Positions 6,679 to 54,462 are shown, counted from the first letter of the stretch. The stretch is 64,000 nucleotides of DNA from Thermocatellispora tengchongensis (GCF_014202315.1 NZ_JACHGN010000001.1:21757-85756), one strand, 5' to 3'. The notes: generated by a model from the letters alone, not told the origin. Made by a program: numbers and translations.

Positions 6679-6751
6679 GCTGGACGCTCGCTTATGGATC
6701 TGAGCATCTCGGCCATGGCCCGTCTCAGGGGCGGGCCGTTTTCATGGACCC

Positions 6752-7588: not shown

Positions 7589-7601
7589 GCCGGGGCAGGG
7601 C

Positions 7602-8207
7602 TCACAGCCAGCCGTTGTGCCTGGCCACGTGCACCGCCTCGGTGCGGTTGCGGGTGCCGGTCTTGCCGATGCAGGACGACAGGTGGTTGCGCACGGTGCT
7701 CTCGGACAGGTGCACCCGGCGGGAGATGTCGGCCACGGTCGCGCCGTCGGCGGCGGCGAGGAGCACGTCGCGCTCGCGTGGGGTGAGCGGGCTCGGCCCC
7801 GCGCTCAGCGCCGCCGCGGCCAGCGCCGGATCGACCACGGTCTCCCCCGCGAGCACCCGGCGGATCGCCCGCGCCAGCTCCTCGACCGGGCCGTCCTTGA
7901 CCAGGAAGCCCCTGGCCCCGGCCTCCAGCGCCCTGCGCAGATAACCGGGCCTGCCGAACGTCGTCACGATCAGCACCGCGCATCGCGGCAGCGCGGTGCG
8001 CAGGGCCGCCGCGGCGTCGATGCCGCTCATGCCGGGCAGCTCGATGTCCAGCAGCGCGACGTCGGGCCGCTCGCGCAGCGCCGCGGGCACGATGGCGTCG
8101 CCGTCGCCGACCTGGGCGACGACCTCCATGTCGTCCTCCAGGTCGAGCAGCACGGCCAGCGCACCGCGCATCATGCCCTGGTCCTCGGCGATGAGCACCC
8201 GGGTCAT
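7602..8207 (-). CDS. two-component response regulator, NarL/LuxR family
   Basis: Receiver domain (LIAEDQ...D...LLDIELPGMSG) plus a LuxR HTH (LTPRERDVL...TVRNHL). The start ATG overlaps the kinase stop (ATGA). Confidence 0.9.
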   Translation of the reverse strand: MTRVLIAEDQGMMRGALAVLLDLEDDMEVVAQVGDGDAIVPAALRERPDVALLDIELPGMSGIDAAAALRTALPRCAVLIVTTFGRPGYLRRALEAGARGFLVKDGPVEELARAIRRVLAGETVVDPALAAAALSAGPSPLTPRERDVLLAAADGATVADISRRVHLSESTVRNHLSSCIGKTGTRNRTEAVHVARHNGWL

Positions 8208-9394
8208 GCGGAGTACTCCGGCGCAGGGTGCGGGATCTCCGCGATGAGACGGAAGCCGCCGCCGAGCGGCGCGGCGTCGAGGCGTCCGCCCGAGGCGGCC
8301 AGCCGCTCCCGAAGCCCGCGCAGCCCGCTCCCGGCCCCGACGTCGCGGGACGTGCCGGCACCGGCAAGGGGCGCGCCGGGCGTGGCGCCGCGGCCGTCGT
8401 CGCTGATCTCCACCCGGATCGGGTCGGTCTCGCGGTGCAGCGCGATGTGGCAGCGGCTCGCCCTCGCGTGCCGTACGACGTTCGTGACGCCCTCGCGCAC
8501 CACCCAGCCGAGCAGTGCGTCGGCCTCGGGCGACAGCGCGGGCCCCGACTCGCTGACCACGCACTCGACCCCGGCCGCGGCGAGCACCGACCTGGCCCGC
8601 TCCAGCTCCAGCGCGAGCCCGGCGTCGCGGTAGCCGGTCACCGCCTCGCGCACCTCGCGCAGCGCCTCGCGGCCGATCGACTCGATGTCGGCGGCATGGG
8701 CGGCGGTGGCCCCGGGATCGCGCGGGGCCAGCCTGCGCGCGGCCTCGGCCTTCACCACGATCACGGACAGCGTGTGCCCGAGCAGGTCGTGCAGGTCACG
8801 GGAGAAGCGCAGCCGCTCCTGCGCCACCGCGGCGCGGGCCAGCTCCTCGCGGGTGCGGTCCAGCTCGGCGACGATCGCGCCGAGCCGCCGGAACCCGTAC
8901 ACCGTCAGCCCGGCCAGCAGCGGGGTCAGCCCGGCGCCGAACAGCGCTTCGGCCGGCTGGCTGCCCCGGGCCAGCATCAGCACCGTGGCGGCCAGCGCGA
9001 CGGCGGCCACCGCCCAGGGGGCCGCGCGCGGTCCGAGCACGGTCCCCACGGCGAGGGAGAGCATGGTGTAGAGCATGACCCAGCCCTCGCCCGGGAAGGC
9101 GGCGGTCGCGGCGAGCGTGATCAGCGCCAGCACGCCCGCCGCGTACTCGGGTCGTGCCAACCGGACCAGGCGCGGCAACCGGAACGGCAGCGGCTCGCTC
9201 CCGCCGAGCACGGCCGCGGCGTACGCGGCGAGCGCGGCGGCCAGCACCGGCCATCCGGGCCACGGCGTCTCCGCGGCGCTGACGGCCGGGGCCAGGGCGA
9301 GCAGCGGCGCCGACGCGATCGGCGCCCAGGTGACCATCCGCCCGTCCGCCCACGACGCGCAACCGCCCGCCCGTTCCACTGCCATGGCACTCAT
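8204..9394 (-). CDS. sensor histidine kinase (DesK/NarX-like, HisKA_3)
   Basis: N-terminal TM helices, then an H-box (RLRFSRDLHDLLGHTLSV) and an HATPase_c domain (GxGLxGLRER). It is co-oriented and coupled with the response regulator. Confidence 0.9.
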   Translation of the reverse strand: MSAMAVERAGGCASWADGRMVTWAPIASAPLLALAPAVSAAETPWPGWPVLAAALAAYAAAVLGGSEPLPFRLPRLVRLARPEYAAGVLALITLAATAAFPGEGWVMLYTMLSLAVGTVLGPRAAPWAVAAVALAATVLMLARGSQPAEALFGAGLTPLLAGLTVYGFRRLGAIVAELDRTREELARAAVAQERLRFSRDLHDLLGHTLSVIVVKAEAARRLAPRDPGATAAHAADIESIGREALREVREAVTGYRDAGLALELERARSVLAAAGVECVVSESGPALSPEADALLGWVVREGVTNVVRHARASRCHIALHRETDPIRVEISDDGRGATPGAPLAGAGTSRDVGAGSGLRGLRERLAASGGRLDAAPLGGGFRLIAEIPHPAPEYSA

Positions 9395-9861
9395 TCTGGG
9401 CGGGCCTCCGCACCGCTCACAACAGCGCTCCCCGCGGCCGGGCCCGCCGTGTCACGCACCACCGCGCCGCTCACGACGGCGCTGATCGCCACCGCGCCGA
9501 CGCTCAGGTGCATCGCGACCAGGGTCGCCACCGCCGCGGGCGTGACCGCGCCGAGCGTCGGGACCAGCGAGCCGATCACCGTGACCACCGCGACCACCAG
9601 CCAGATGGTCCGGGCCCGCTGGGGGAACAGCCGTCGCAGCACCGCAAGGACGCCGAACCCGGCCAAGCTGAGCACCAGGCTGCTCACCACGATGCCGGGC
9701 ACGCCCACGTTCAGCGCCTCCGGCCCGGTGCCGACCGTGAGGTCCACCCCGGCCCCCGGCACCGCGACCGCCCACACCACGAGGGGCGCGGCCACGGAGC
9801 CCGCGACCCCCGCCGCCACCCCTCGCCACCGGAGCCCTCCGCCCGCCGCCTTCTGGGTCAT
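9391..9861 (-). CDS. small integral membrane protein (4 predicted TM)
   Basis: 157 aa, strongly hydrophobic. Its stop overlaps the histidine kinase start, which makes it a likely third component of the two-component system module. Confidence 0.7.
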   Translation of the reverse strand: MTQKAAGGGLRWRGVAAGVAGSVAAPLVVWAVAVPGAGVDLTVGTGPEALNVGVPGIVVSSLVLSLAGFGVLAVLRRLFPQRARTIWLVVAVVTVIGSLVPTLGAVTPAAVATLVAMHLSVGAVAISAVVSGAVVRDTAGPAAGSAVVSGAEARPE

Positions 9862-10139
9862 CACCGTTCTCCCCCTTCCGTCTCGTCGTCCCGACGACCG
9901 TACGAACGGGGCGCGCGTGAGCGGCAGAGCCGGATGTCGTCTCTTGACCAGGACAAATCACCTGGGTCCCGGCCCTTCCGGGCAGCGGGTGGGGGCGCAT
10001 CGGAAACTTGGCGCCTTGACAGCACCGAAACTACAAGCAGGTGATTTGAGTGGCGGACTTCTACAGAGAAGCCGGGCCGAACAGAATGAGAATCTGGTAA
10101 TGTCCAAATGGCATCACGGCTTGCCTTCCCCGAGAGCAT

Positions 10140-10156
10140 GGTGAAAGAATTTCACC
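10140..10156. promoter_or_regulatory. perfect inverted repeat GGTGAAA-GAA-TTTCACC in an AT-rich intergenic region
   Basis: Read directly from the sequence. It lies in a ~450-bp region of lower GC between divergent transcription units, upstream of the 10.4–19.6 kb operon. Confidence 0.3.
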
Positions 10157-10408
10157 TTCCACGATGCCGCTCCGAGCCGACGCACACGTGCACAACACAT
10201 CGGTCCCGGCCCGCCGAAGCCGCCAATCCGTCCGCGGCGCCACATCGGCCCGCCGGCACCGCCGCACCATCTGAGGTGCTACCAGGCGTCACCGTTTCGG
10301 ATAGTCCTTATCGCACCGTAAGTGATAATCACATTTGACGCCGAAAAGCCCAATTATTCATGTTCATTACCTTCCCAGCAGATCACCGTAGGTCTAATAT
10401 CAGGGTTT

Positions 10409-11632
10409 GTGTCTCGGCATGCGGCGGATTTACCGGACAAGCAAGTATGGCCTCCGAGTGGCAGCGACGCCTCGCCCGGACATTCCCTTGACCATGCCTC
10501 CGATCATGACTTCGATCAGGTCCTGACGTACGACTGGGCCGGCGACGCGGAACCCGTACCCGCGATCGAATGGCGAAAGATCATTGTTTTCGGGTCGGCG
10601 CTGGCCGCGCTCGCGGCGGTGGGCGCGGCGGGGGCGGCCGTACTCCTCACCGCCGAACCGCCCGCGGCCCGCAGCCCCGTCGCGGGCGCCGCCCCCGCAC
10701 CCGGCCGGGCCGCCCCCGGCCCCGCGACCGCGGCCTCGGCCTCGCCCTCGGCCTCGCCCGGCGTACGGGCCCAGCTCACGCCGGCCCAGGCGGCGCGGGT
10801 CCACGACCGCTTCCAGCGCGGGCTGTCCGCCGCCCAGGCGGCGATGGACGCCGAGGCGATCGGCCGCTACGAGCACGGCCTGGCGCTGGAGATGACCCGG
10901 GCGGGCATCGAGACCGCGCGGATGCGGGGAGAGAAGGTGCCGGCCGGGATGTGGCCCAAGCCGCGCGTGTGGGTGCCGCGGCACGCCGAGGGCCGCCCCG
11001 ACTGGTTCGTCGCCGTCTCCCACGAGCCCGGCGTGGCGCGCATCAGCGACGTCATGGAACGTACGCGCGCCGGGTGGCGGCTGGTCGCCTCGGCCGCCGA
11101 CACCCGGGCCACCCCGGAGCCGCTGCCCGCCATCGCCACCGACGCCGCGGGATACGCCACCAGCCTGTCCCAGGACGCGACCGGGCTGCGCGGCACCCCG
11201 CGCCAGATCGTCCGGGCCCACCTGGCCGCCCTGCGCGGCATGCGCGAGGACCCGCGCTTCGCCGACGGCCCGTGGACCGGCGCGGCCGTGCGCTTCTGGC
11301 GCGCGGAACGCGACCGGCTCGAACGGGCCGGCTGGCGGCTGTCCCTGTCGTACATACAGGAAGGACGAATACGCGCGCTGAGGACCGCCGACGGGGGCGC
11401 CCTCGTGTGGTACTCCGCGCGCTCCACCGACACGCGTACGGCCGAGCGGCCGGGCGCCCTGGTGAAGCTGAAAGGAGCGGCCGCGGTACGAACCGCGGAC
11501 AAGTCGTTCGCCCGCTGGGCGAGCGCCACGTACGGACGGATGTACGTCGCGTACATACCACCCGCCGGTTCGGCCGAGCGTGTCCGCGTGATGGGGGAGT
11601 GGACCGATCTCTTGGAGAGCGACGGCGCCTGA
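10409..11632 (+). CDS. hypothetical membrane-anchored protein
   Basis: GC3 becomes strongly biased only from about 10560, and there is one TM helix (IIVFGSALAALAAVGAAGAAVLL). The only in-frame start codons are GTG at 10409 and GTG at 10322, so the start is uncertain. Confidence 0.6.
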   Translation: MSRHAADLPDKQVWPPSGSDASPGHSLDHASDHDFDQVLTYDWAGDAEPVPAIEWRKIIVFGSALAALAAVGAAGAAVLLTAEPPAARSPVAGAAPAPGRAAPGPATAASASPSASPGVRAQLTPAQAARVHDRFQRGLSAAQAAMDAEAIGRYEHGLALEMTRAGIETARMRGEKVPAGMWPKPRVWVPRHAEGRPDWFVAVSHEPGVARISDVMERTRAGWRLVASAADTRATPEPLPAIATDAAGYATSLSQDATGLRGTPRQIVRAHLAALRGMREDPRFADGPWTGAAVRFWRAERDRLERAGWRLSLSYIQEGRIRALRTADGGALVWYSARSTDTRTAERPGALVKLKGAAAVRTADKSFARWASATYGRMYVAYIPPAGSAERVRVMGEWTDLLESDGA

Positions 11633-11658
11633 CGCCGGCCTGGAGAGGAGACACACTC

Positions 11659-13224
11659 ATGGCGAGATCATCGAGACGACCCGCACGCGCCACAGTGATC
11701 ACGGCCGGTGCCGCGCTGGGAGTCTTCGCACTGGGCGCCGGGCTCGGCGTCGTCGTCTCCGGAGGCTCCGAAGGCACGATGCGGCTCGCCGCCGGCACAT
11801 ATCGGCTGGACGACGACGGCCGGCTCCTCACCACCGAGCCTCCCGCCTCGGAGCAGGAGGCCGCGCCCCTCTCCGACGCCGACATGGGCAGCACGATCAC
11901 GGACGCCGCGGATGACGAACGCGTCTGCCTGACCACGACCACCGACGGCCGGGCCGTCGGCTCCTCCGGACGCGACTGCACCCCGCTGCCGTTCGTGGGC
12001 GGTGCGGCGGGCGCGTTACGCCCCGGCAACCCCAAGCATCCCCCACGCCCGACGGCGACCCCCAGCGCGACGGGCAGCCCCACCGCCACCCCCAGCGCGA
12101 CGGGCAGCCCCACCCGCACCCGGACGGCCCCGCCGTCCCCCCGCCCGACGCCCACCATGACGGGCACGCCCCGCCCGAGCGCGCCGCCCACGCGCACGCG
12201 CACGCCGGCCCCGACCGCCAGCCCCAGGCCGTCCACCACGGCGACCGGGTGCGTGCTGCGCGCGCCCAACGGGGTCGCGCTCACCCCGGCCATGCCGCAG
12301 AGCGGCAACGGCGACCGGGGCCGGCCGCGGCCCACCGGATGCCCGGCGCCCACGACGTCCGTGAGCGCGAGCACCGGCGTGACCCCCACCGCCCCGGGCA
12401 CGCCGACCCGCGACGGCGGCAACCGCGAGATCCTGCCCCCGCGCACCCCCGACGCGCCCCCCACCCAAGCGCCCCGCCCCGGCGCGCCGACCGCCGACGC
12501 ACCCGGTCCCGGCGCACCCACCGCCGACGCACCCGGCCCCGGCGCACCCACCGCCGACGTCCCCGCCCCCGCGCCCAGCGCGGGTGACGGGAGCCGCGAC
12601 GTGGTCCCGCCGACCACGCCCAGCCAGGCGCCCACCGGCAGCCCCTCGCCGGGCACCGAGGGTGGCGGCGACGGGGCGGACAGCCTGCCGGTGTTCCGCG
12701 ACCCCGAGCTGCTGCGGCGGGCGTACGAGGCGCTGGGCATCGGCACGCGCGACTACATCGACGAGAACGGCGTGTGGGACCTCAACGTGGCGCCGCCCGG
12801 CACCCCGCCGTGCCGCGACTACACCGAGGAGGAGCTGGAGCGCCTGCGCGAGCAGGCGGGCGACCGGGGCCTGCCCACCGGCGTGATCCCGCGCGACTCG
12901 TGCCTGTGGCCGGCCTTCATCCGCTGGCTGCTCGCCGACCCGGCGCCGGGCGAGGTGAGCAACTGGACCAAGTTCACCGGCCTGCCGGACCGGAACCTGG
13001 ACATCGAGGTCGTCGATCCGGCGAGCCCGGCACCCGTCGCGACGCCGGCCGTCCCGGCGCAGGAGGTGCCACAGGCGCCGGATCGGCCCGGCGACGGCCG
13101 TGACGACGGCCGTGATGACGGCCCCGACGACGGCTACGGGCGGCCGGAAGGCTACGAGGAGGGGCAGGTGAACGGGTTCGGCCGGGACGAGGCCGGGCCG
13201 GATGGTCCGGGATTCACGGAATGA
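11659..13224 (+). CDS. secreted Pro/Thr-rich repeat protein
   Basis: ATG at 11659 with a GGAGAGGAG RBS, a signal-peptide-like N-terminus, PTATPSATGS x2 and APTADAPGPG x3 repeats, and an acidic C-terminal tail. Confidence 0.7.
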   Translation: MARSSRRPARATVITAGAALGVFALGAGLGVVVSGGSEGTMRLAAGTYRLDDDGRLLTTEPPASEQEAAPLSDADMGSTITDAADDERVCLTTTTDGRAVGSSGRDCTPLPFVGGAAGALRPGNPKHPPRPTATPSATGSPTATPSATGSPTRTRTAPPSPRPTPTMTGTPRPSAPPTRTRTPAPTASPRPSTTATGCVLRAPNGVALTPAMPQSGNGDRGRPRPTGCPAPTTSVSASTGVTPTAPGTPTRDGGNREILPPRTPDAPPTQAPRPGAPTADAPGPGAPTADAPGPGAPTADVPAPAPSAGDGSRDVVPPTTPSQAPTGSPSPGTEGGGDGADSLPVFRDPELLRRAYEALGIGTRDYIDENGVWDLNVAPPGTPPCRDYTEEELERLREQAGDRGLPTGVIPRDSCLWPAFIRWLLADPAPGEVSNWTKFTGLPDRNLDIEVVDPASPAPVATPAVPAQEVPQAPDRPGDGRDDGRDDGPDDGYGRPEGYEEGQVNGFGRDEAGPDGPGFTE

Positions 13225-43763: not shown

Positions 43764-43800
43764 TTGGGTGGCCGAGGGGACGTTGGGTGGCCGAGGGGAC
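43764..43800 (+). repeat. 18-bp tandem duplication (ttgggtggccgaggggac x2) abutting the ATG at 43801
   Basis: Read directly from the sequence. It contains a purine-rich RBS-like GAGGGGAC in each copy. Confidence 0.7.
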
Positions 43801-45549
43801 ATGGTGCTCGACCCAGAGCTCGCGGAAATCGTCGACAACCTCCGTACCATCGGCGCGGACATCGCCGACGTCGAGGTGAAGAAGGCCCAGGGAGGCCTGC
43901 CCAGGTCGCTGCGCGAAACGCTCTCGGCGTTCGCCAACACCCGAGGTGGCGTGATCATCCTAGGGCTGGACGAAACCCAGGGCTTCGCGGCGACGGGCCT
44001 GACCGATCCGGCGGACGTGGCCGCGGGTCTGGGCGCCATGTGCGCGGAGGACATGGAACCACCGCTGAGACCTCTTATCAAGATCCATCGGTTCGAGGGC
44101 ACTCACATACTGGTCGCGGAGGTCCCCGAACTCGATGCTGCTCAAAAGCCCTGCTTCTCGCGGTCCGCGGGCATCACCAAGGGCAGCTACGTCAGGGTCG
44201 GCGACGGCGATCGCCGGCTGTCGGCCTACGAGGTGCAGGTCATGCTGTCCTCCCGAGGCCAGCCTCGGGAGGACGAACAGGCCGTACGAGGGGTGGGGTT
44301 GGAGCACCTCGACCCCGCAGGCGTGGACGCGTTGATCGGCCGGCTACGCATCAGCAGGCCGTATGCGTTCAAGGATCTCACCCCGATGGCGGTGCTGCGG
44401 CGCGCCAAGGTGCTTGTGCCGGACGGCCACGGTGGTGAGGCGGTCTCGCTGGCCGGGCTTCTGGCACTTGGGCGCTACCCACAGGAGCACTTTCCTCAAC
44501 TGATGGTCACCTTCGTCCACTATCCCACCCCCAGCGGATCGCGACCTGATGCGCGGTTTCTGGACAACGTAACGCTGGAAGGCCCGATCCCGATCATGGT
44601 CCGCGACACCCTCGCAGCGATACGTCGCAACATGTCGCGCAGAGCGGTCATCGAAGATGCGGGCCGCGAGGATGTCTGGGAGTATCCGGAGACGGCGCTG
44701 CGGGAAGCGGTGGTGAACGCCTTGGTTCACCGTGACCTGTCCACCGGCGCGCGCGGCACTCAGGTCCAGGTCGAGATGTATCCCGACAGATTGCTTATTC
44801 GCAATCCCGGTGGACTGTTCGGTCCTGTCAGCATCGACAGCCTGGGCGAAGAGGGCATCTCCTCCGCCCGTAACGCCATTCTCATCAAACTCCTGGAAGA
44901 TGTCCCCCTGCCCGGTGAGAGCCGTACCGTCTGCGAGAATCGCGGGTCGGGTATCCGGGCCATGCTCAACTCATTGCTGGCCGCGGGCATGAGCCCGCCG
45001 CAGTTCGATGACAAAATCTCCTCTTTCGTGGTCCTCTTCCCCAACCACACGCTCCTGAGTGAGGAGATTGTCGGCTGGATCCGCAGTCTGGGAGAGAAGG
45101 GTCTGACCGACAGTCAGTGCGTCGCCCTGGCCCTGCTACGCGAAGAGGGAAGCCTCGACAACCGCGCATACCGCAACGCGACCGGTGTGGACTCACGCGT
45201 CGCCACCGCCGAACTCCGGGACCTCGTCGCCCGTGAGCTCATAACCCAGTCAGGGACTCGCCGCTGGGCCAGGTATCTGCTGTCCCAGCGCCACACCGAG
45301 ACGACGGATCAGTCCGCGCGCGCCGACCGCAGGCCGCAACTGCTGGCGGCTCTTGGAGAGCAGACTCTGTCCCGGGCCGAGTTGGTGTCGCGGACCGGAC
45401 TCGGCGATCAGACGGTCCGGAGGTGGTTGAAGATCCTCCGGGACGAGGGCCTGATCGAGACCGTGGGAAGCCCCAAGAGCGTTCACGTCCGATATCGCCG
45501 CACGCGTCAAGAACCACTCTTCCCGCACGGGAACTCGGGGCGCGACTGA
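43801..45549 (+). CDS. AlbA_2 (Schlafen-like divergent AAA) + HATPase_c_4 + C-terminal wHTH putative transcriptional regulator
   Basis: The domain order matches the widespread 'ATP-dependent DNA helicase RecG-related / putative DNA-binding' family. GC content is visibly lower (~64%) than the flanking genes, with frequent A/T-ending codons. Confidence 0.8.
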   Translation: MVLDPELAEIVDNLRTIGADIADVEVKKAQGGLPRSLRETLSAFANTRGGVIILGLDETQGFAATGLTDPADVAAGLGAMCAEDMEPPLRPLIKIHRFEGTHILVAEVPELDAAQKPCFSRSAGITKGSYVRVGDGDRRLSAYEVQVMLSSRGQPREDEQAVRGVGLEHLDPAGVDALIGRLRISRPYAFKDLTPMAVLRRAKVLVPDGHGGEAVSLAGLLALGRYPQEHFPQLMVTFVHYPTPSGSRPDARFLDNVTLEGPIPIMVRDTLAAIRRNMSRRAVIEDAGREDVWEYPETALREAVVNALVHRDLSTGARGTQVQVEMYPDRLLIRNPGGLFGPVSIDSLGEEGISSARNAILIKLLEDVPLPGESRTVCENRGSGIRAMLNSLLAAGMSPPQFDDKISSFVVLFPNHTLLSEEIVGWIRSLGEKGLTDSQCVALALLREEGSLDNRAYRNATGVDSRVATAELRDLVARELITQSGTRRWARYLLSQRHTETTDQSARADRRPQLLAALGEQTLSRAELVSRTGLGDQTVRRWLKILRDEGLIETVGSPKSVHVRYRRTRQEPLFPHGNSGRD

Positions 45550-45629
45550 GGCAGGACCGTCCGAGCGCAGGTGAGGACGGACGGGCGCGGCCACGGCGGG
45601 GCTGAGGGGGCCGCCCGGTAGGGCCGGGG

Positions 45630-45658
45630 GGTGGCGGGTGGGTTTGCCGCCCGCCACC
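45630..45658. terminator. GC-rich hairpin (GGTGGCGGG-N11-CCCGCCACC) between convergent genes
   Basis: Read directly from the sequence. There is no clear T-tract, so this could be a factor-dependent or bidirectional terminator. Confidence 0.3.
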
Positions 45659-45688
45659 TGTGCGCGGCCGCGCGAGGACACGCGGGGT

Positions 45689-46306
45689 TCAGCTTCGGCC
45701 CTCTTTGGGGGGGAGGTTGGTGTCTAGCCAGTCGAGTTCGGCCAATAGGCGGTCGGGTGGGCCGGCGAGGGAGGGGTCGCCCAGGGCGAAGTCGAGGGCG
45801 TCGCGGGTGGCCTGGTAGCGGGTGGCGGCCAGGAGGCGGGTGCGGGTGACCGGGTCGCGGGCTGCGCCTGCCTCTATGACCGTGGTTCTGGCGGCTGCGG
45901 CGAGTTTGGCGGCGAGGATGTGGGTGCGGCGGAACTGGCGGCGGCGGCCGGTGGCGAAGACCCAGGACATCGCGCGTACGAGGCGCATCGGGTCGCGGCC
46001 CGCGGCGAGCTGGCGCAGGGCGGCCAGGGCGGCGCGGGGGAAGGTGGCGGCGGTGGCGCGGCGGCGGCACTCGACCTCCAGGGCGGCCAGCCGGTCGACG
46101 CGGGCGCGGAGCCGGACGAGCAGGAGCCGGGAGTACATCTCCACGATCTCCTGGCGGCGGCTGACGAGCCGCGGTTCCCACGAGGTTCCGCGTTCGAGCA
46201 CCGCCTCGTCGCGGCCGGTGCCGAACACCATCTCGTGGGCATGGACACTGCAGGCGTATGTCAGGGCGAGGGTGACGTCCCTGCCCCGTTTGGTGTTCTC
46301 TGTCAT
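45689..46306 (-). CDS. hypothetical protein
   Basis: 205 aa with consistently high GC3 across the ORF. The overlapping plus-strand ORFs are Arg-rich shadow ORFs. No recognisable family. Confidence 0.55.
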   Translation of the reverse strand: MTENTKRGRDVTLALTYACSVHAHEMVFGTGRDEAVLERGTSWEPRLVSRRQEIVEMYSRLLLVRLRARVDRLAALEVECRRRATAATFPRAALAALRQLAAGRDPMRLVRAMSWVFATGRRRQFRRTHILAAKLAAAARTTVIEAGAARDPVTRTRLLAATRYQATRDALDFALGDPSLAGPPDRLLAELDWLDTNLPPKEGRS

Positions 46307-49106: not shown

Positions 49107-49201
49107 CCTTCTGAGCCGGAAACCCCTGGTCGTCCGGCCTGAGCGCAGGCGTCAAGCCGTTTGCAACCCGCTTTCGATAGGTTTGCGCGCATTCAGGTCG
49201 G

Positions 49202-50179
49202 ATGACGGAGGGGTTGCGGTTGAAGGCCCGTATTTCAGGGGTCGCCACCTATCTGCCGGAGCGCACGCTCACCAGCGGTGAGGTCGAACAGCGGATCGAG
49301 GGCTACGTCCCCCATCCCGGCATCGTGGAACGGCTGACCGGCATCCGGCAGCGGCACGTGGCGCGCGACGACCAGCAGGCGTCCGACCTGGCCGCGGAGG
49401 CGGCGCGCGAGCTCGACCTGGACGGCGTGGACCTGCTGATCTTCGCCTCGGCGTCGCAGGACATGATCGAGCCCGCGACCGCGCACATCGTCTCGGCGAA
49501 GCTGGGCCTGTCCTGCCCGGTCTTCGACGTCAAGAACGCCTGCAACAGCATCCTGAACGGCATCCAGGTCGCCGAGGCGCTGATCCGCACCGGCGCGTAC
49601 GCCAAGGTGCTGGTGTGCGGCGGCGAGGTGCCCTCGCGCGCGATCCGGTGGCGGATCAGGGACCGGGCGCAGTTCGTGGACGCGTTCGCGGGCTACACGC
49701 TGTCCGACGCGGGCGCGGCGGTGCTGGTGACGGCCGACCCGCACCGCGGCATCTTCTACCGCGACTTCTCGGCCGACAGTACGGCGTGGGCCGTCGGCAC
49801 GCTGCCCGGCGGCGGCACCGCCCACCCCCGCGACCCCGAGTTCTCCTACTTCCGCGGCGACGGCCGCCGCCTGCGCGAGGCGTTCGAGCTGGTCGGCCCG
49901 GACCTGTTCCTCAACGCGCTCAAGCGCACCGGCCTGAGCTGGGACGACTTCGCCGTGGTCGCGGTCCACCAGGTGGCCATGCCCTACCTGCACTTCCTGG
50001 CCGGGGCCCTGGGCATCCCGGACGACCGCCTGGTCGTCACGCTGCCCGAGCACGGCAACTGCGCCTCCGCCACCCTGCCGCTCCAGCTCGCCCAGGGCGG
50101 CTGGTCGCCCGGCGACCGGGTGGCCCTGCTCGGGCTGGCCGGCGGGATCAGCCTGGGCGTGATGCTGGCGGAGATGTGA
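49202..50179 (+). CDS. 3-oxoacyl-ACP synthase III (KAS III/FabH-like) family protein
   Basis: Thiolase fold of ~325 aa with an active-site Cys context (NACNSILNG) and a C-terminal His/Asn region. It is the first gene of a five-gene coupled operon. Confidence 0.8.
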   Translation: MTEGLRLKARISGVATYLPERTLTSGEVEQRIEGYVPHPGIVERLTGIRQRHVARDDQQASDLAAEAARELDLDGVDLLIFASASQDMIEPATAHIVSAKLGLSCPVFDVKNACNSILNGIQVAEALIRTGAYAKVLVCGGEVPSRAIRWRIRDRAQFVDAFAGYTLSDAGAAVLVTADPHRGIFYRDFSADSTAWAVGTLPGGGTAHPRDPEFSYFRGDGRRLREAFELVGPDLFLNALKRTGLSWDDFAVVAVHQVAMPYLHFLAGALGIPDDRLVVTLPEHGNCASATLPLQLAQGGWSPGDRVALLGLAGGISLGVMLAEM

Positions 50180-50919
50180 TGGCCGAGATGAACCTGTGGG
50201 TGATCGTCCCGGCCTACAACGAGGCGGCCGGGATCGAGGGCACCCTGAAGGCCCTGGCCGCGCAGGACGACACCGGCTTCACCCTGCTCGTCGTGGACAA
50301 CGCCAGCACCGACGGCACCGCCGAGGTCGTGGCGCGGCACGGCGTCCAGGTGATCCGCGAGGAGCACAAGGGCACCGGGGCCGCCTCCGACACCGGCATG
50401 CGGTACGCGATCGCGCACGGGGCCACCCACCTGGCCCGCACCGACGCCGACTGCCTGCCCCGCCCCGACTGGGTGCGCAACATCAAGCGCGCCTTCGGCG
50501 ACGGGCTGGAGCTGGTCGGCGGGCAGCTCCGGCCGCGTACCGACGAGTTCCGGCTCAAGCTGTGGGAGCGCCGGCTGATCCCCGCCGTGGTGGCGGTGGC
50601 GGCGCTGTTCGGCCGGTTCCGGCCCGGCAACCGCGACCCCGCCTACCTCGGCCCGTACGTCATGATGCCCGGCGCCACCATGGCGATCACCGCCGGCCTG
50701 TACGAGCGGTCGGGCGGCTTCCCGCGTACCGCGATCGAGGAGATGCACGAGGACCGCGCGCTGGTCAACCGGGTGCGCAAGCTGACCAGGGCGTACGCCT
50801 CACGCCGCGACGTGGTGGTGTTCGGGTCGGTGCGCAGGCTGCGGGCGTACGGGCTGGTGGGCACGCTCGGCTGGTACGCCGACCACCGCTACCGCCCCGA
50901 GGTGATCGACGTCCGGTGA
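50179..50919 (+). CDS. glycosyltransferase family 2
   Basis: WVIVPAYNEAAGI...LLVVDNASTDGT is the GT2 (GT-A, DxD) signature. ATG overlaps the upstream TGA by 1 nt. Confidence 0.8.
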   Translation: MAEMNLWVIVPAYNEAAGIEGTLKALAAQDDTGFTLLVVDNASTDGTAEVVARHGVQVIREEHKGTGAASDTGMRYAIAHGATHLARTDADCLPRPDWVRNIKRAFGDGLELVGGQLRPRTDEFRLKLWERRLIPAVVAVAALFGRFRPGNRDPAYLGPYVMMPGATMAITAGLYERSGGFPRTAIEEMHEDRALVNRVRKLTRAYASRRDVVVFGSVRRLRAYGLVGTLGWYADHRYRPEVIDVR

Positions 50920-52040
50920 TCGACCACGAGCGCAGGCTGTACCTCGCGGCGCACCCGGTCGCGTACCCGCTGCTGCGGCTGCTGGCCAGGCTGGGCCCGG
51001 TCGTGCGGGTGCCCGGCCTCGGCGTCGTGGTGAACGACGCCGCGACCGCCCGCGCGGTGCTGATGGACGAGCGTTTCCGCAAGGACGGCCCCGGTTCCCC
51101 GGGCGACCTGTGGACGCCGGTGCTGGGCCCGTCGGTGCTGCTGAACATGGAGGGCCCGGCGCACCTGGCGCTGCGCCGCAAGCTGGCGCCGCTGTTCGCG
51201 CCCGCGTACGTGGCGGGCCTGGTCGAGGACGTGCTGCGCGCCCCGCTCAAGGAGCTGGACGAACGGCTGGCCCGCGGCGACCGGGTGGACCTGGTGGACG
51301 CGATGCGGCTGATGGCCGGGGCGGTGATCTGCCGGGTGATCGGCCTGGGCGAGGTGCCGGAGGCCAGGGCGCGGGAGCTGTTCGCGGACGGCGAGCGGGT
51401 GGTGGCGATGGTGTCGCTGCGCTCGCGCGGCCTGTCGCCGCGCCAGATCGCCGTGGCGCGCGAGGTGCTGGACCGGATCGGCGACATCGCCGCCGCCGCG
51501 TACGCCGAGGGCGACGAGACGACCGTGATGGGCCGGATGCGGGCGCTCGGCCTGTCGGAGGCGGAGGCGCGCGGCGCGGCCGGGGCGTTCTTCCTGACCG
51601 GCACCGAGACCGTGGCCACGTTCGTGCCGCGCCTGGTCGCGCTGATCCACGACCACGGGACCCGGGTCACCGACCTGGACGCGGCCATCGAGGACGCCAT
51701 GCGGGTGACCACCCCGACCCCGGTCATGCTGCGCTCGGTGGCCGAGCCCGCCCGCATCGGGCGCGCCCGGGTGCGGCCGGGCGACCGCGTGATCATCGCC
51801 ACGCACAACTGCGCCCGCGCGTACGGGCCGTTCGACCCGGACGCCGCCCGGCCGCCGGAGGTGCGCCGGCTGTGGTTCGGCGCGGGCCCGCACTTCTGCA
51901 TCGGCTACCCCCTGGCGCTGGCCGAGATCCGCGCGGTGGCCTCCGTGGTGCTGGCGCACCGGCCCCGCGTCGTGGCCCGCCGCGCGGCCCGCGGCGTGCT
52001 CATCCCCACCTACCGGAACCTGTGGATAACCGCTTCATGA
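50916..52040 (+). CDS. cytochrome P450
   Basis: Heme-binding loop FGAGPHFCIGYPLA and an ExxR motif. GTG start overlaps the GT2 stop. Confidence 0.9.
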   Translation: MIDHERRLYLAAHPVAYPLLRLLARLGPVVRVPGLGVVVNDAATARAVLMDERFRKDGPGSPGDLWTPVLGPSVLLNMEGPAHLALRRKLAPLFAPAYVAGLVEDVLRAPLKELDERLARGDRVDLVDAMRLMAGAVICRVIGLGEVPEARARELFADGERVVAMVSLRSRGLSPRQIAVAREVLDRIGDIAAAAYAEGDETTVMGRMRALGLSEAEARGAAGAFFLTGTETVATFVPRLVALIHDHGTRVTDLDAAIEDAMRVTTPTPVMLRSVAEPARIGRARVRPGDRVIIATHNCARAYGPFDPDAARPPEVRRLWFGAGPHFCIGYPLALAEIRAVASVVLAHRPRVVARRAARGVLIPTYRNLWITAS

Positions 52041-53512
52041 TCATGGACATTGTGGCCGGCGTGCTGGACACCGCACGCCGCTCCCCCGGCGCGGTCGCCG
52101 TGATCGACGGCCGCGGGCGGCCGGTCACGTACGGCGAGCTGCGCGAGCGCGTGCTCGCGGTGCGCGCCGCCGTGACCGTCTCGCGCCCCGGCGAGGGTGT
52201 GCTGTTCGCCGTACGCCCCGGCCCGGAGGCGGTCGCGCTCGCGCTGGGCGCGGTCGCCGCGGGCGGCATGCTCGTCCTGGTGGACCCGGGCGTGGCCCCG
52301 GACGTGTTCGCGGCCCGGATGGCCGCCGCCCGGCCCGGCTGGGTGGTCACCGAGTCGCTGCTCTATCTGCTCAGCGGCCCGCTGGCGGGCCTCGCCCGGC
52401 GCCGAGGGCTCCAGCTCCCGCGGCTGGCCGACCCGGTGCCGGGGACGCCGCTGCGGCACGTCTACACCGGGCCGTGGCTGCCGGGCGTGCCGCGCGGGGC
52501 GTACCGGCTGAGGCGCGGCCCCGCCCCGGAACCCGAGGACGGCGCCGGCGAACAGGACGCCGTGGTCGTGTTCACCTCCGGCACCACCGGGCAGCCCAAG
52601 GGCGTGGTGCATTCGCGCGCCTCGCTGGCCCGCGGCGTGGACATGTTCCGGGCCGCGTTCCCGCTGGGGCCCGGCGACGTGGTGCACACCGACCAGCTCA
52701 TGCTGGGCCTGCCCGCGCTGATGGCCGGGGCGACCTGGTCCCTGCCCGGCTCGGCCGGCCGTTTCGCGGCGGAGCTGGCCGAGCGCCGCGCCACGCACGC
52801 CTTCGCGGTCCCGGTGCGCCTGGACGCCGCGCTGCGCGCCGCTGGAACGCTCCCGGGCACGCTGCGCCACCTGCTGCTCGGCGCCGCGCCCGCGCCGCCG
52901 GCCGTGCTGCGCCGGGCCGTCGCCGCCGCGCCGAACGCCGAGGTGCTGTCGGTGTACGCGATGACCGAGGCGCTGCCGATCGCCGTCGCCACGGCGGAGG
53001 AGAAGCTGGCCTGCCAGGAGGGCGACCTGCTCGGCGCGCCCCTGCCCGGGGTCGGCGTCCGGATCGCCGAGGACGGCGAGCTGCACGTCTCGGGCCCGCA
53101 CCTGGCCCGCCGCTACCTGGGCGGCCCGCCGCTGGCCGAGGTGCCGACCGGCGACCTGGTACGCCTCGACGCCGAAGGCCGGCTGGTCCTGCTCGGCCGC
53201 AAGAAGGACATGATCCTGCGCGACGGCGTGAACATCTACCCCGGCCTGTACGAGCCCGCCGTCGCCGCCTTCCCCGGCGTCGCCGAGGCGGCGATCGTGG
53301 GCCTGGCCGACCCGGAGACGGGGGACGAGGAGGTCGTGCTGGCCGTGGTGCCCGCCGACGGCTACGACGAGGGCAGGCTGCGGGCCGCGCTGCCCGGGTT
53401 CGTGGACGCCGGGGCCCTGCCCGATCGCATCGTCGCCCTGCCCGCCCTGCCCCGCTCCGGCCGCGCCGCCAAGCTGGACCGCGCCGCCCTGCGCGAGGCG
53501 GTCCGGGCATGA
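52037..53512 (+). CDS. AMP-dependent synthetase/ligase (acyl-CoA / fatty-acyl-AMP ligase family)
   Basis: AMP-binding motif VFTSGTTGQPKGV and downstream adenylate-forming core motifs. ATGA overlap with the P450 stop. Confidence 0.85.
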   Translation: MIMDIVAGVLDTARRSPGAVAVIDGRGRPVTYGELRERVLAVRAAVTVSRPGEGVLFAVRPGPEAVALALGAVAAGGMLVLVDPGVAPDVFAARMAAARPGWVVTESLLYLLSGPLAGLARRRGLQLPRLADPVPGTPLRHVYTGPWLPGVPRGAYRLRRGPAPEPEDGAGEQDAVVVFTSGTTGQPKGVVHSRASLARGVDMFRAAFPLGPGDVVHTDQLMLGLPALMAGATWSLPGSAGRFAAELAERRATHAFAVPVRLDAALRAAGTLPGTLRHLLLGAAPAPPAVLRRAVAAAPNAEVLSVYAMTEALPIAVATAEEKLACQEGDLLGAPLPGVGVRIAEDGELHVSGPHLARRYLGGPPLAEVPTGDLVRLDAEGRLVLLGRKKDMILRDGVNIYPGLYEPAVAAFPGVAEAAIVGLADPETGDEEVVLAVVPADGYDEGRLRAALPGFVDAGALPDRIVALPALPRSGRAAKLDRAALREAVRA

Positions 53513-53546
53513 GACCCGGGCATGAGGACCCAGGCATGAGGACCAT
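53506..53546 (+). repeat. three tandem ~13-bp units (gcatgagRaccc/gcatgaggacc) over the ligase stop and epimerase start
   Basis: Read directly from the sequence: gcatgagacccgg / gcatgaggaccca / ggcatgaggaccatgg. Each unit carries an ATGA start/stop overlap motif. Confidence 0.6.
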
Positions 53547-54462
53547 GGTCGTGACCGGGGCGTCCGGGTTCGTGGGCGGGGCGGTGTGCCGGGCGGCGAT
53601 GGCCGAGGGCTGGGACGTGCGCGCGTTCGGGCGGCGGCCCGAGGTGCCGCCGGAGCACGTCGGCGGGGCGCCGTACACGGCGTGGGACCTGACCGCCTAC
53701 CGGGTGCCGCGCGTGCCCCGGGCCGACGTGGTGATCCACTGCGCGGGCAGCGTGACCGACTGGGGGCCGCCCCGGGAGATCTGGGCCGCCAACGCGGGCG
53801 GCACCCGCGCGGTCGCCAAGGCGTTCCCGTGGGCCAGGTTCGTGCACGTCAGCACGGCCAGCGTGTACGACCCCCGCCGCCCCACCGTGCGCGCCAGGGA
53901 GGACGAGGCCCCGGTGCGCCGCTACGTCAACGCCTACGGCGCCTCCAAGGCGACCGCGGAGAACCTGGTCCGCGACCGGGCGATCGTGCTGCGCCCGCAC
54001 GCCGTCTACGGGCCCGGCGACACCACGCTGCTCCCCCGGGTGCTGGCCGCGGTGCGCGGGCGCCGCCTGGTCGCGGTGGGCGACGGGCGGCAAGCGATCA
54101 GCCTGACCTCGATCGGCAACCTGGTACGCGCCTGCCTGCTGGCCGCCGCCGGGCCGGTGGAGCGGGGCGTGTTCAACGTGACGGACGCCGAGCCGGTCAC
54201 GCTGGACTGGGCACTGCGGGAGATCCTGCGCGAGCGCGGCATCGCGGCTGAGCCGCACTACCTGCCCCTGCGGCCGGCGCTCGCGGCCGTGGCGGTGGGC
54301 GAGACGGTGTACCGGCTGCTGGGGGTGCGCCGCCCGCCGCGGCTCACCGCGTACGCGGTCGGCCACCTGGCCGTGGAGCGGACCCTGGACATCTCGGCGG
54401 CCCGCCGCGCCCTGGGCTACGACCCGGCCCCGACCTCCTTCGCCGGAGCCGCCGCCTGGTGA
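53536..54462 (+). CDS. NAD-dependent epimerase/dehydratase (SDR) family protein
   Basis: N-terminal VVTGASGFVGGAV Rossmann motif and a YxxxK catalytic motif (YGASKATAE). The start could alternatively be the ATG at 53545. Confidence 0.85.
   Translation: MRTMVVTGASGFVGGAVCRAAMAEGWDVRAFGRRPEVPPEHVGGAPYTAWDLTAYRVPRVPRADVVIHCAGSVTDWGPPREIWAANAGGTRAVAKAFPWARFVHVSTASVYDPRRPTVRAREDEAPVRRYVNAYGASKATAENLVRDRAIVLRPHAVYGPGDTTLLPRVLAAVRGRRLVAVGDGRQAISLTSIGNLVRACLLAAAGPVERGVFNVTDAEPVTLDWALREILRERGIAAEPHYLPLRPALAAVAVGETVYRLLGVRRPPRLTAYAVGHLAVERTLDISAARRALGYDPAPTSFAGAAAW

What the first reader, a model, noticed from the sequence alone, without database searches (positions are those of the whole stretch)
49202..54462. 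Compact five-gene coupled biosynthetic operon: KAS III-like, GT2, cytochrome P450, fatty acyl-AMP/CoA ligase, NAD-dependent epimerase
All four junctions overlap (ATGTGATGG, GTGA, ATGA, repeat junction), which implies stoichiometric co-expression. Chain initiation/condensation (FabH-like), acyl activation, oxidation (P450), sugar modification (epimerase) and glycosyl transfer (GT2) together could make a hydroxylated glycolipid or an acylated sugar. The adjacent LCP ligase and upstream glucose DH/gnd hint at a cell-envelope destination. It is small enough to be missed by standard BGC predictors.
Basis: partly seen in the sequence, partly recalled or inferred. Interest (0 to 1): 0.6.

Follow-up and report, generated by a model that had tools for sequence, protein, structure and literature searches.

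The report
Ole-like lipid cassette with P450 and glycosyltransferase
The five tightly packed genes are real and form a cassette conserved across many actinobacteria, but three of them look like the OleA/OleC/OleD enzymes that join two fatty acids head-to-head, so the likely product is an oxidised, sugar-bearing branched lipid or beta-lactone that has been predicted once in the literature and never isolated.

Summary
Five + strand genes fill 49202-54462 of a Thermocatellispora tengchongensis chromosome (KAS III-like, GT2, P450, AMP-ligase, extended SDR), with start/stop overlaps at the junctions. The KAS III carries the OleA-specific catalytic Glu (E90 = OleA Glu117) and an OleA-type His motif. 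The "epimerase" is closest to OleD (2-alkyl-3-oxoalkanoate reductase), not to sugar epimerases. The ligase is OleC/FACL-like. The best reading is therefore an oleA-oleD-oleC-type head-to-head condensation pathway without oleB, tailored by a P450 and a GT2. The same five genes in the same order occur in 63 of 80 related genomes sampled. They also occur in Arthrobacter, Kibdelosporangium, Streptomyces, Cellulosimicrobium and metagenomes at only 33-50% P450 identity, each time with different flanks. It is a self-contained cassette, and the LCP/gnd neighbours are lineage-specific. Smith et al. (mBio 2020) described the same gene content in Actinoplanes atraurantiacus and predicted a glycosylated hydroxy-beta-lactone. 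The product remains unknown. Verdict: new member of a bioinformatically known but uncharacterised kind, of moderate interest.

The parts
49162..49183 (+). Conserved upstream motif TGCAAC-N10-TAGGTT. It is a probable promoter -10 region or operator of the cassette, lying 19 nt upstream of the ATG at 49202.
   Evidence: The pattern TGCAA[C/G]-N10-TA[C/G][A/G]TT occurs at the same relative place upstream of the KAS gene in 13 of 79 loci (window, Thermopolyspora, Microtetraspora, Sinosporangium, Nonomuraea). The simple sigma-70 scan finds nothing. Function is inferred only.
49202..50179 (+). g1: OleA-like KAS III-fold thiolase, 325 aa (319 aa if it starts at TTG 49220). Cys114/His256/Asn286 triad plus Glu90.
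50179..50919 (+). g2: small soluble or peripheral GT2 (GT-A) glycosyltransferase, 246 aa. DxD is D89-A-D91.
   Evidence: Pfam Glycos_transf_2 2.8e-22. The nearest NCBIfam models are the MftF-like TIGR04283 (2e-19) and MftF, both below cutoff. 60-70% identity between orders, with many invariant motifs: KGTGAA.DTG, ARTDADCLP, GGFPRT.IE..HEDRAL, WYADHR.
50916..52040 (+). g3: cytochrome P450 of a distinct, short (374 aa) actinobacterial family, with a GTG start overlapping the g2 stop.
   Evidence: Heme loop FGAGPHFCIG with invariant Cys328, I-helix TGTET, and (E/D)xxR. No close PDB relative: best E 3e-20, Foldseek TM 0.73-0.80. AF2 pLDDT 90. 516 species genomes encode a relative.
52037..53512 (+). 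g4: ANL-superfamily adenylate-forming enzyme, 491 aa, either an OleC-like beta-lactone synthetase or an acyl-CoA ligase.
   Evidence: Pfam AMP-binding 6e-46 and AMP-binding_C. Motifs FTSGTTGxP(K/R)G, YAMTE, TGD, GRKKDM and the A10 Lys479 are conserved. In NCBIfam, PRK09274 is top or second in five of six proteins and the OleC model ranks 3rd-19th where it appears (absent for L085 and L076); all are below cutoff.
53509..54462 (+). g5: OleD-like extended SDR (3-beta-HSD family) reductase, 317 aa from ATG 53509 or 308 aa from ATG 53536.
   Evidence: The two best NCBIfam hits are the two OleD models (1.6e-35 and 1.2e-33), against HpnA 6e-17 and GalE 4e-06. The same ranking holds in five distant orthologues. 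TGASGFVG and YxxxK (Y143, K147) are invariant.
53506..53544 (+). Tandem triplication (14-nt unit, 2.9 copies) of the ancestral overlapping g4-stop/g5-start junction. It is in frame (27 nt) and leaves three in-frame ATGs at 53509, 53536 and 53545.
   Evidence: TRF. Comparison with orthologous junctions. An independent duplication of the same junction is seen in Actinomadura sp. GC306 (L066).

Best explanation
The five genes are one transcription and translation unit. They encode an Ole-type head-to-head lipid pathway that lacks the decarboxylase OleB and carries two tailoring enzymes.

Proposed order of events (inferred):
1. g1 (OleA-like) loads one fatty acyl-CoA on Cys114. It uses Glu90 from the partner subunit to deprotonate the alpha-carbon of a second acyl-CoA, giving a 2-alkyl-3-oxo acid by non-decarboxylative Claisen condensation.
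2. g5 (OleD-like SDR) reduces the 3-oxo group with NAD(P)H to the 2-alkyl-3-hydroxy acid.
3. g3 (P450) hydroxylates one alkyl chain.
4. g2 (GT2) transfers a sugar from an NDP-sugar to that hydroxyl.
5. g4 adenylates the carboxylate. If it acts like OleC, the 3-OH attacks the adenylate to close a beta-lactone.

The product would be a glycosylated, hydroxylated dialkyl beta-lactone, or its open 2-alkyl-3-hydroxy acid.

Shown here: gene structure, domain identities, catalytic residues, nearest families, and conservation of the gene set.

Inferred: substrates, order of steps, the site of oxidation, the sugar, and whether the lactone is formed.
For: g1:
- The OleA Glu117 equivalent (E90) and the 'NAC' and 'HQV' motifs are shared with OleA. 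FabHs have Phe and HQAN at these positions.
- These residues are invariant from Thermocatellispora to Arthrobacter, Streptomyces and Cellulosimicrobium.
- JGI names some orthologues acyl-CoA:acyl-CoA alkyltransferase.

g5:
- The OleD models are the best hits by about 20 orders of magnitude, in the window and in five distant orthologues.

g4:
- It is an ANL enzyme. PRK09274 ranks first or second in five of six proteins scanned. The OleC model is also listed for four of them, ranking 3rd to 19th.

Gene set:
- All five genes are present in the same order in 63 of 80 loci. 4-nt overlaps occur at 26-52 of 64-71 junctions.
- The same order is found in Arthrobacter FB24, Kibdelosporangium, Streptomyces, Cellulosimicrobium and a metagenome contig, with unrelated flanks.
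- All five genes stay together even where the order is rearranged (L090).
- No alpha/beta-hydrolase (OleB), ACP, fabD or PKS gene is called next to the cassette in any context table.

Literature:
- PMC7064751 describes the same domain set in Actinoplanes atraurantiacus: OleA, glycosyltransferase, OleC, P450, OleD, with no oleB in the genome. It proposes the same chemistry. Its OleA was active on p-nitrophenyl hexanoate in vivo.
Against: - No protein reaches the curated NCBIfam cutoff of any Ole model: OleD 123 against 580, OleC 79 against 900, PRK09258 135 against 285.
- The ligase is about equally similar to ordinary long-chain acyl-CoA ligases (PRK06187 is its top hit in the window).
- The purified Actinoplanes 'OleA' gave no Claisen product with C8-C16 acyl-CoAs. 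I could not show by sequence that the Actinoplanes cluster is orthologous.
- Ten Nonomuraea loci lack the ligase, and nine of them (KAS-P450-SDR only) also lack GT2. Lactone closure and glycosylation are therefore dispensable for whatever the core makes.
- No product is known.
Confidence: 0.6

Rival explanations
1. A FabH/DpsC-type KAS III primes or extends a chain with malonyl-ACP from a fatty acid activated by the ligase (FACL or FAAL). The P450 hydroxylates it. The epimerase remodels an NDP-sugar and the GT2 attaches it, giving a linear hydroxy-fatty-acid glycolipid or acyl sugar destined for the envelope through the adjacent LCP protein.
For: g1's best overall sequence matches are FabHs. 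g4's best match in the window is a long-chain acyl-CoA ligase model. g5 belongs to the Pfam Epimerase family. An LCP gene lies 109 nt downstream on the same strand with no predicted terminator, and it is conserved downstream within Streptosporangiaceae.
Against: g1 has Glu at the OleA Glu117 position where FabHs have Phe, and HQV instead of HQAN. No ACP, fabD or malonyl-transfer gene is found in any of the contexts. g5 matches OleD at 1e-35 but GalE at only 4e-06 and RmlD at 4e-10. LCP and gnd adjacency disappears outside one family.
Confidence: 0.12
2. Same head-to-head core, but no beta-lactone. g4 is a genuine acyl-CoA or acyl-AMP ligase. It either supplies one (possibly P450-hydroxylated) fatty acid to g1, or activates the final acid for ester transfer. 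The end product is then an open-chain, mycolic-acid-like 2-alkyl-3-hydroxy acid glycolipid, a structural envelope or surface lipid rather than a reactive natural product.
For: g4 is as close to FACLs as to OleC and keeps a full C-terminal domain. The ligase and GT2 are lost together in nine Nonomuraea loci while KAS-P450-SDR stay at about 80% identity and remain coupled. Sequence conservation is unusually high for a secondary-metabolite cluster: GT2 is 60-70% identical and KAS 53-58% identical between orders. The cassette is present in most of the sampled Streptosporangiaceae and Thermomonosporaceae genera.
Against: The N-terminal (substrate) half of g4 and its orthologues matches PRK09274 and the OleC model best. 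The oleA+oleD+ANL triad without oleB is the signature of the known beta-lactone clusters lst and nlt (10.1101/856955; PMC7064751). No 2-alkyl-3-hydroxy glycolipid is known to me from these genera; that rests on my own knowledge and was not searched exhaustively.
Confidence: 0.22
3. g1 is a pyrone- or resorcinol-forming head-to-head ketosynthase of the MxnB/CorB/PpyS/StlD type. The cassette would then make a glycosylated alkyl-pyrone or dialkylresorcinol signal molecule.
Against: Those pathways need beta-ketoacyl thioester or ACP partners and an aromatase or cyclase, and none is present. An OleD-like 3-oxo-acid reductase and an ANL enzyme have no role in them. The NCBIfam StlD/DarB model hits g1 only at 5e-07.
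Confidence: 0.05

Closest known systems
Actinoplanes atraurantiacus 'oleA-GT-oleC-P450-oleD' cluster (Smith, Robinson, Molomjamts & Wackett, mBio 2020, PMC7064751)
   Same: The five-domain content is the same and oleB is absent. Its OleA is about 29% identical to X. campestris OleA; g1 is 34% identical over the N-terminal 187 residues. The chemistry proposed there matches the one proposed here: Claisen condensation, reduction, hydroxylation, glycosylation, lactone closure.
   Different: The paper lists the genes as OleA, GT, OleC, P450, OleD. Here and in every locus I examined the order is OleA, GT2, P450, ligase, SDR. I could not fetch the Actinoplanes sequence (WP_097326105), so orthology is inferred from the description only. 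That cluster is itself uncharacterised: the purified OleA was inactive with C8-C16 acyl-CoAs.
Nocardiolactone (nltABCD) and lipstatin (lstABCD+EF) beta-lactone clusters
   Same: They combine OleA-type thiolase(s), an OleD-type reductase and an OleC-type ATP-dependent beta-lactone synthetase, without OleB. They have been reconstituted in vitro (10.1101/856955).
   Different: Those clusters use two OleA paralogues as a heterodimer, with the Glu on one subunit. Here there is a single OleA-like gene. They have no P450 and no GT2; lipstatin adds an NRPS and a formyltransferase instead. None of the window's proteins reaches the curated Ole cutoffs.
oleABCD long-chain olefin pathway (Xanthomonas, Shewanella, Micrococcus/Arthrobacter)
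   Same: The OleA catalytic set Cys/His/Asn plus trans-Glu, an OleD-like SDR and an OleC-like ANL enzyme, all tightly clustered.
   Different: There is no OleB beta-lactone decarboxylase in or near the cassette in any locus, so an olefin is not expected. A P450 and a GT2 are added. Sequence identity to the canonical enzymes is only about 27-34%.
FabH (KAS III) of type II fatty-acid synthesis
   Same: The same fold and Cys-His-Asn triad, and overall the highest sequence scores (4ryb, E 7e-47 with the family profile).
   Different: Glu replaces Phe87', HQV replaces HQAN, there is no fabD/acpP/fabF context, and the gene is always embedded in the five-gene cassette.

Membership tests
OleA (acyl-CoA:acyl-CoA alkyltransferase, EC 2.3.3.20) | Thiolase/KAS III fold with a Cys-His-Asn triad | tested here: met
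OleA (acyl-CoA:acyl-CoA alkyltransferase, EC 2.3.3.20) | Catalytic Glu (Glu117 in X. campestris), 26 residues upstream of the Cys, absent from FabH | tested here: met
   E90 in SQDMIEP aligns with the E of SRDYLEP. FabHs 4ryb and 4dfe have Phe and PqsD has Asp. The residue is invariant in all 17+7 orthologues.
OleA (acyl-CoA:acyl-CoA alkyltransferase, EC 2.3.3.20) | Score above a curated family threshold | tested here: not met
   NCBIfam PRK09258 gives 135 bits against a cutoff of 285, and the FabH model PRK09352 scores higher at 156 bits. The OleA-specific pHMM of PMC7064751 is not available here.
OleA (acyl-CoA:acyl-CoA alkyltransferase, EC 2.3.3.20) | Non-decarboxylative Claisen condensation of two long-chain acyl-CoAs; two alkyl channels | not testable with these tools
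   This needs an enzyme assay or cavity analysis of coordinates. The only related experiment, on the Actinoplanes protein, was negative or inconclusive.
OleD (2-alkyl-3-oxoalkanoate reductase) | Extended SDR with TGxxGxxG and S...YxxxK | tested here: met
   TGASGFVG; Y143 and K147 are invariant.
OleD (2-alkyl-3-oxoalkanoate reductase) | OleD models as best hit, and score above the curated cutoff | tested here: inconclusive
   The best hit is OleD in six of six proteins (1e-30 to 1e-43, with the next family at about 1e-16), but the scores of 105-147 bits are far below the cutoff of 580.
OleC (beta-lactone synthetase) | ANL adenylate-forming fold with the core motifs and the A10 Lys | tested here: met
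   The A3, A5, A7, A8 and A10 motifs are conserved. Pfam AMP-binding and AMP-binding_C.
OleC (beta-lactone synthetase) | Specific relationship to OleC rather than to acyl-CoA ligases | tested here: inconclusive
   The OleC model gives 79-108 bits against a cutoff of 900 in the four proteins where it is listed at all, ranking 3rd-19th. PRK09274 is first or second in five of six proteins (fourth in L085), and PRK06187 (long-chain FACL) scores equally well. AdenylPred is not available.
oleABCD olefin pathway | OleB alpha/beta-hydrolase (beta-lactone decarboxylase) in the cluster | tested here: not met
   No alpha/beta-hydrolase gene is adjacent in the window or in any context table. The rest of the genome was not searchable.
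Housekeeping FabH | fabD-fabH-acpP-fabF context; Phe87'; HQAN motif | tested here: not met
   The neighbours are gnd and GT2. The sequence has Glu90 and HQVA.
   GalE 3.7e-06, RmlD 3.6e-10 and dTDP-glucose dehydratase 6.6e-07, against OleD 1.6e-35. The top PDB hit is the sterol 3-beta-HSD NSDHL.
Cytochrome P450 | Heme-thiolate loop FxxGxxxCxG, I-helix (A/G)GxxT, ExxR | tested here: met
   FGAGPHFCIG with C328 invariant in 27 sequences. TGTET. DAMR in the window and EAMR in most orthologues. High-confidence P450 fold.
GT2 glycosyltransferase | GT-A N-terminal NDP-sugar domain with DxD; Pfam score above the gathering threshold | tested here: met
   PF00535 gives 79.8 bits against a threshold of 23.3. 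D89-A-D91 is invariant. Donor and acceptor were not determinable.

The most novel reading that the evidence does not exclude
The cassette may not be an antibiotic-type cluster. It could be the biosynthetic unit for a conserved structural lipid of non-mycolate actinomycetes: a 'mini-mycolate', meaning a 2-alkyl-3-hydroxy fatty acid made by an OleA/OleD pair instead of Pks13/FadD32/CmrA. The lipid would be oxidised by a dedicated P450 family and glycosylated (ligase plus GT2) for display in the envelope or on spores and hyphae. This would account for three things: the unusually high sequence conservation between orders, the presence of the cassette in most of the sampled Streptosporangiaceae and Thermomonosporaceae genera, and its insertion into the spc ribosomal-protein operon in Arthrobacter sp. 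FB24.
Probability: 0.2. Interest if true: 0.75.

Novelty: new member of a known kind. Interest (0 to 1): 0.45.

Why it matters
If the model is right, hundreds of actinobacterial species carry a compact and easily transplantable five-gene route to a lipid class that has never been isolated: a glycosylated, hydroxylated dialkyl beta-lactone or beta-hydroxy acid. At least 516 species genomes encode the signature P450. Long-chain beta-lactones such as lipstatin/orlistat and nocardiolactone are covalent serine-hydrolase inhibitors, so a glycosylated series would be of pharmacological interest. If the product is instead an open-chain mycolate-like glycolipid, it would add a new envelope component to major genera. 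The cassette also offers a single-subunit OleA, a new P450 family and a very conserved small GT2 for enzymology. Only one paper has noted the gene content, and its key enzyme could not be assayed, so the question is open and can be tested directly.

Tried and rejected
- Housekeeping FabH: rejected on context and on the Glu/HQV motifs.
- Sugar epimerase role for g5: rejected on the NCBIfam ranking.
- Functional link to LCP, gnd or glucose DH: rejected, because the flanks differ outside Streptosporangiaceae.
- Plasmid-borne mobility: tblastn of the P450 against 72,556 plasmids found nothing at E<=1e-30.
- Riboswitch or other known RNA, sigma-70 promoter, intrinsic terminator: nothing found.
- Proving orthology with the published Actinoplanes cluster: I queried with the Catellatospora (Micromonosporaceae) KAS. 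Its best hits were Actinomadura, with no Actinoplanes in the top 120.
- P450 substrate from structure: Foldseek gives only generic class-I P450 neighbours. CYP107L2 with lauric acid and P450BioI with acyl-ACP are among the best at TM 0.77-0.80, which is suggestive of acyl substrates but not discriminating.
- Literature on Arthrobacter FB24 olefins (Frias 2009, Sukovich 2010): these papers are not held.
- Searches for later work on the cluster found none.

Full report
**Source and gene structure**

The window is a 73-75% G+C actinobacterial chromosome. Exact-match look-up of the first protein places it in Thermocatellispora tengchongensis, family Streptosporangiaceae. Many spurious ORFs exist at this G+C content, so I used third-position GC. 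From 49300 to 54400 there are five successive + strand frames with GC3 of 0.96-1.00 and the codon-position pattern of + strand genes.

- g1, 49202-50179: KAS III
- g2, 50179-50919: GT2
- g3, 50916-52040: P450
- g4, 52037-53512: AMP-binding enzyme
- g5, 53509-54462: NAD-dependent epimerase/3-beta-HSD family

Two refinements apply.
- The g4/g5 junction lies in a 14-nt x 2.9 tandem repeat at 53506-53544. Orthologues show that the ancestral junction was a plain (A/G)TGA overlap followed by RIAVTGASG. Here the triplication adds 27 in-frame nt, so either ATG 53509 (overlapping) or ATG 53536 (NCBI's choice) can serve as the start.
- Orthologues of g1 start at MK(A)RI. That corresponds to TTG 49220, which is preceded by GGAGGGG, rather than to ATG 49202.

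**What the proteins are**

*g1.* It has the Cys114/His256/Asn286 triad. A profile of 17 orthologues searched against the PDB aligns the family to X. campestris OleA. g1's SQDMIEPATAHIV...FDVKNAC lies opposite OleA's SRDYLEPSTASIV...FDVANAC.
- The Glu sits 26 residues before the Cys in OleA (24 in g1, because of a 2-residue deletion). It is OleA Glu117, the base for the non-decarboxylative Claisen condensation.
- FabHs in the same output have Phe at this position and PqsD has Asp.
- The His motif is HQV, as in OleA, and not the HQAN of FabH.
- E90, C114, H256 and N286 are invariant in all orthologues, including those of Arthrobacter, Kibdelosporangium, Streptomyces and Cellulosimicrobium.
- The overall sequence score is nevertheless a little higher to FabH than to OleA, and no curated cutoff is reached. 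The claim is therefore 'works like OleA', not 'is an OleA equivalog'.

*g5.* Its two best NCBIfam hits are the two OleD (2-alkyl-3-oxoalkanoate reductase) models, at 1.6e-35 and 1.2e-33. The next family, HpnA, is at 6e-17, and the sugar-nucleotide enzymes are at 1e-6 to 1e-10. Five distant orthologues give the same ranking. The sugar-epimerase reading is not supported.

*g4.* It is a complete ANL enzyme with conserved core motifs and the A10 lysine. Across orthologues its best models are PRK09274 and a long-chain FACL model. The OleC model is listed for four of the six proteins scanned, at ranks 3 to 19, and every score is below cutoff. Its second half-reaction (lactone closure versus CoA thioester) cannot be decided from sequence here.

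*g3.* It is a genuine P450: heme loop FGAGPHFCIG, I-helix TGTET, model pLDDT 90. It belongs to a distinct family with no close solved relative.

*g2.* It is a small GT-A GT2 with an invariant DAD motif. Its nearest models are MftF-like small-molecule glycosyltransferases.

**Conservation**

- A genome-collection scan found relatives of the P450 in 516 species genomes.
- In the 80 best loci (Streptosporangiaceae, Thermomonosporaceae, Catellatospora), 63 contain all five genes in the same order. 4-nt start/stop overlaps predominate.
- The P450 family extends to Pseudonocardiales, Micrococcales, Streptomyces and Catenulisporales.
- I looked up seven distant contexts, at 33-50% P450 identity. Arthrobacter sp. 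FB24, Kibdelosporangium phytohabitans, a Streptomyces, Cellulosimicrobium composti and a metagenome contig have the identical order. One contig has the same order with ligase and SDR fused. One MAG has a rearranged set with an MFS transporter inserted, but all five genes are still present.
- The flanks are unrelated in every lineage. In Arthrobacter the cassette sits between adk and map of the spc ribosomal operon.
The supposed link to LCP, gnd and glucose DH is only vertical synteny within one family.
- Variants exist. Nine Nonomuraea loci have a precisely coupled three-gene form, KAS-P450-SDR, that lacks both GT2 and the ligase. One locus (L046) has a truncated KAS and no ligase. Streptomyces and Cellulosimicrobium carry a second, paralogous P450 beside the cassette.
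- No copy is on a known plasmid.

**Mechanism**

An OleA-like condensing enzyme, an OleD-like reductase and an ANL enzyme, always together and without OleB, form the signature of the Ole-derived beta-lactone pathways (lipstatin, nocardiolactone; 10.1101/856955).

The most economical model has five steps:
1. Head-to-head condensation of two acyl-CoAs (g1).
2. 3-oxo reduction (g5).
3. Chain hydroxylation (g3).
4. Glycosylation (g2).
5. Carboxyl adenylation with lactone closure (g4).

This is essentially what Smith et al. proposed for a cluster of the same domain content in Actinoplanes atraurantiacus. Its OleA was active on a p-nitrophenyl ester in vivo, but it precipitated on purification and gave no Claisen product (PMC7064751).

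I give the Ole-type reading a confidence of 0.6. Within it, the choice between a beta-lactone and an open 2-alkyl-3-hydroxy acid glycolipid is open. The joint loss of ligase and GT2 in Nonomuraea, and the very high conservation between orders, lean slightly toward a structural lipid. The cluster signature and the OleC-like N-terminal half of g4 lean toward a lactone.

**Novelty and score**

The gene content has been noticed once, and no product or enzymology exists. Literature searches found nothing later.

What this analysis adds:
- Residue-level support for OleA and OleD chemistry.
- The reassignment of the 'epimerase'.
- The demonstration that this is a strictly syntenic, translationally coupled cassette spread across at least six actinobacterial orders.
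- Its natural deletion and expansion variants.

The window's operon is a new member of that known but uncharacterised kind. Interest is moderate at 0.45. It is a good target for heterologous expression, but its logic would not surprise a specialist.

Noticed in passing
L084 (Arthrobacter sp. FB24, CP000454.1 3311291-3328493), cassette at 6167-11828: The whole five-gene cassette is inserted between adk and map, at the end of the spc ribosomal-protein/secY operon and on the same strand. That is an odd, highly expressed location for a lipid or natural-product cluster.
   Followed up: no
L012, L026, L032, L036, L054, L057, L058, L059, L061 (Nonomuraea spp.); L046: These loci carry a three-gene form, KAS-P450-SDR, in which GT2 and the ligase are cleanly absent, the remaining junctions still overlap, and identity to the window is about 80%. 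L046 has a truncated KAS (152 aa) plus GT2, P450 and SDR without the ligase. I do not know whether the missing genes lie elsewhere in those genomes.
   Followed up: partly
L086 5066-6238 (+) and L087 4668-5990 (-): A second P450 lies directly beside the cassette in a Streptomyces and in Cellulosimicrobium composti. It is paralogous to g3 (35% identity to g3, 51% between the two copies) and has RHxCLG in the heme loop. This is a six-gene variant.
   Followed up: partly
L089 8654-10723: In one metagenome contig the ligase and the SDR are called as a single 689-aa fusion (AMP-binding + Epimerase). The KAS on the same contig is split into two ORFs, so this may be an assembly or frameshift artefact rather than a real OleC-OleD fusion.
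   Followed up: no
window 53506-53544; L066 around the g4/g5 junction: The overlapping stop/start junction GGGCATGAG has been tandemly triplicated here (14-nt unit, in frame overall). The same junction has been independently duplicated in Actinomadura sp. GC306. This suggests recurrent slippage at this coupled junction.
   Followed up: yes
window 49162-49183: The motif TGCAAC-N10-TAGGTT upstream of g1 recurs with fixed spacing in 13 of 79 orthologous loci. Streptosporangium and Planobispora loci instead share GGACAA-N16-TACATTGCGCG. The 10-nt spacing is too short for a standard -35/-10 pair, so this may be a -10 element plus an operator.
   Followed up: partly
window 43768-45549 (+), and 44001-46000 generally: This is a Schlafen/AlbA_2 + HATPase_c_4 + HTH protein (593 aa) in a stretch of lower G+C (0.67 against about 0.74) and weaker GC3. 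It may be a horizontally acquired segment just upstream of the glucose DH and gnd genes.
   Followed up: no
one search hit list; L076 (Catellatospora sp. KI3): The Catellatospora (Micromonosporaceae) KAS is closest to the Actinomadura and Spirillospora orthologues (72-75% identity) and not to other Micromonosporaceae. This points to lateral transfer of the cassette from Thermomonosporaceae.
   Followed up: no
A3 alignment, columns 60-120, 210-245 and 270-320: The ligase carries lineage-specific low-complexity insertions rich in Ala, Gly, Pro, Ser and Asp in its N-terminal domain. Lengths run from 483 to 580 aa across orthologues, while the core motifs stay invariant.
   Followed up: no
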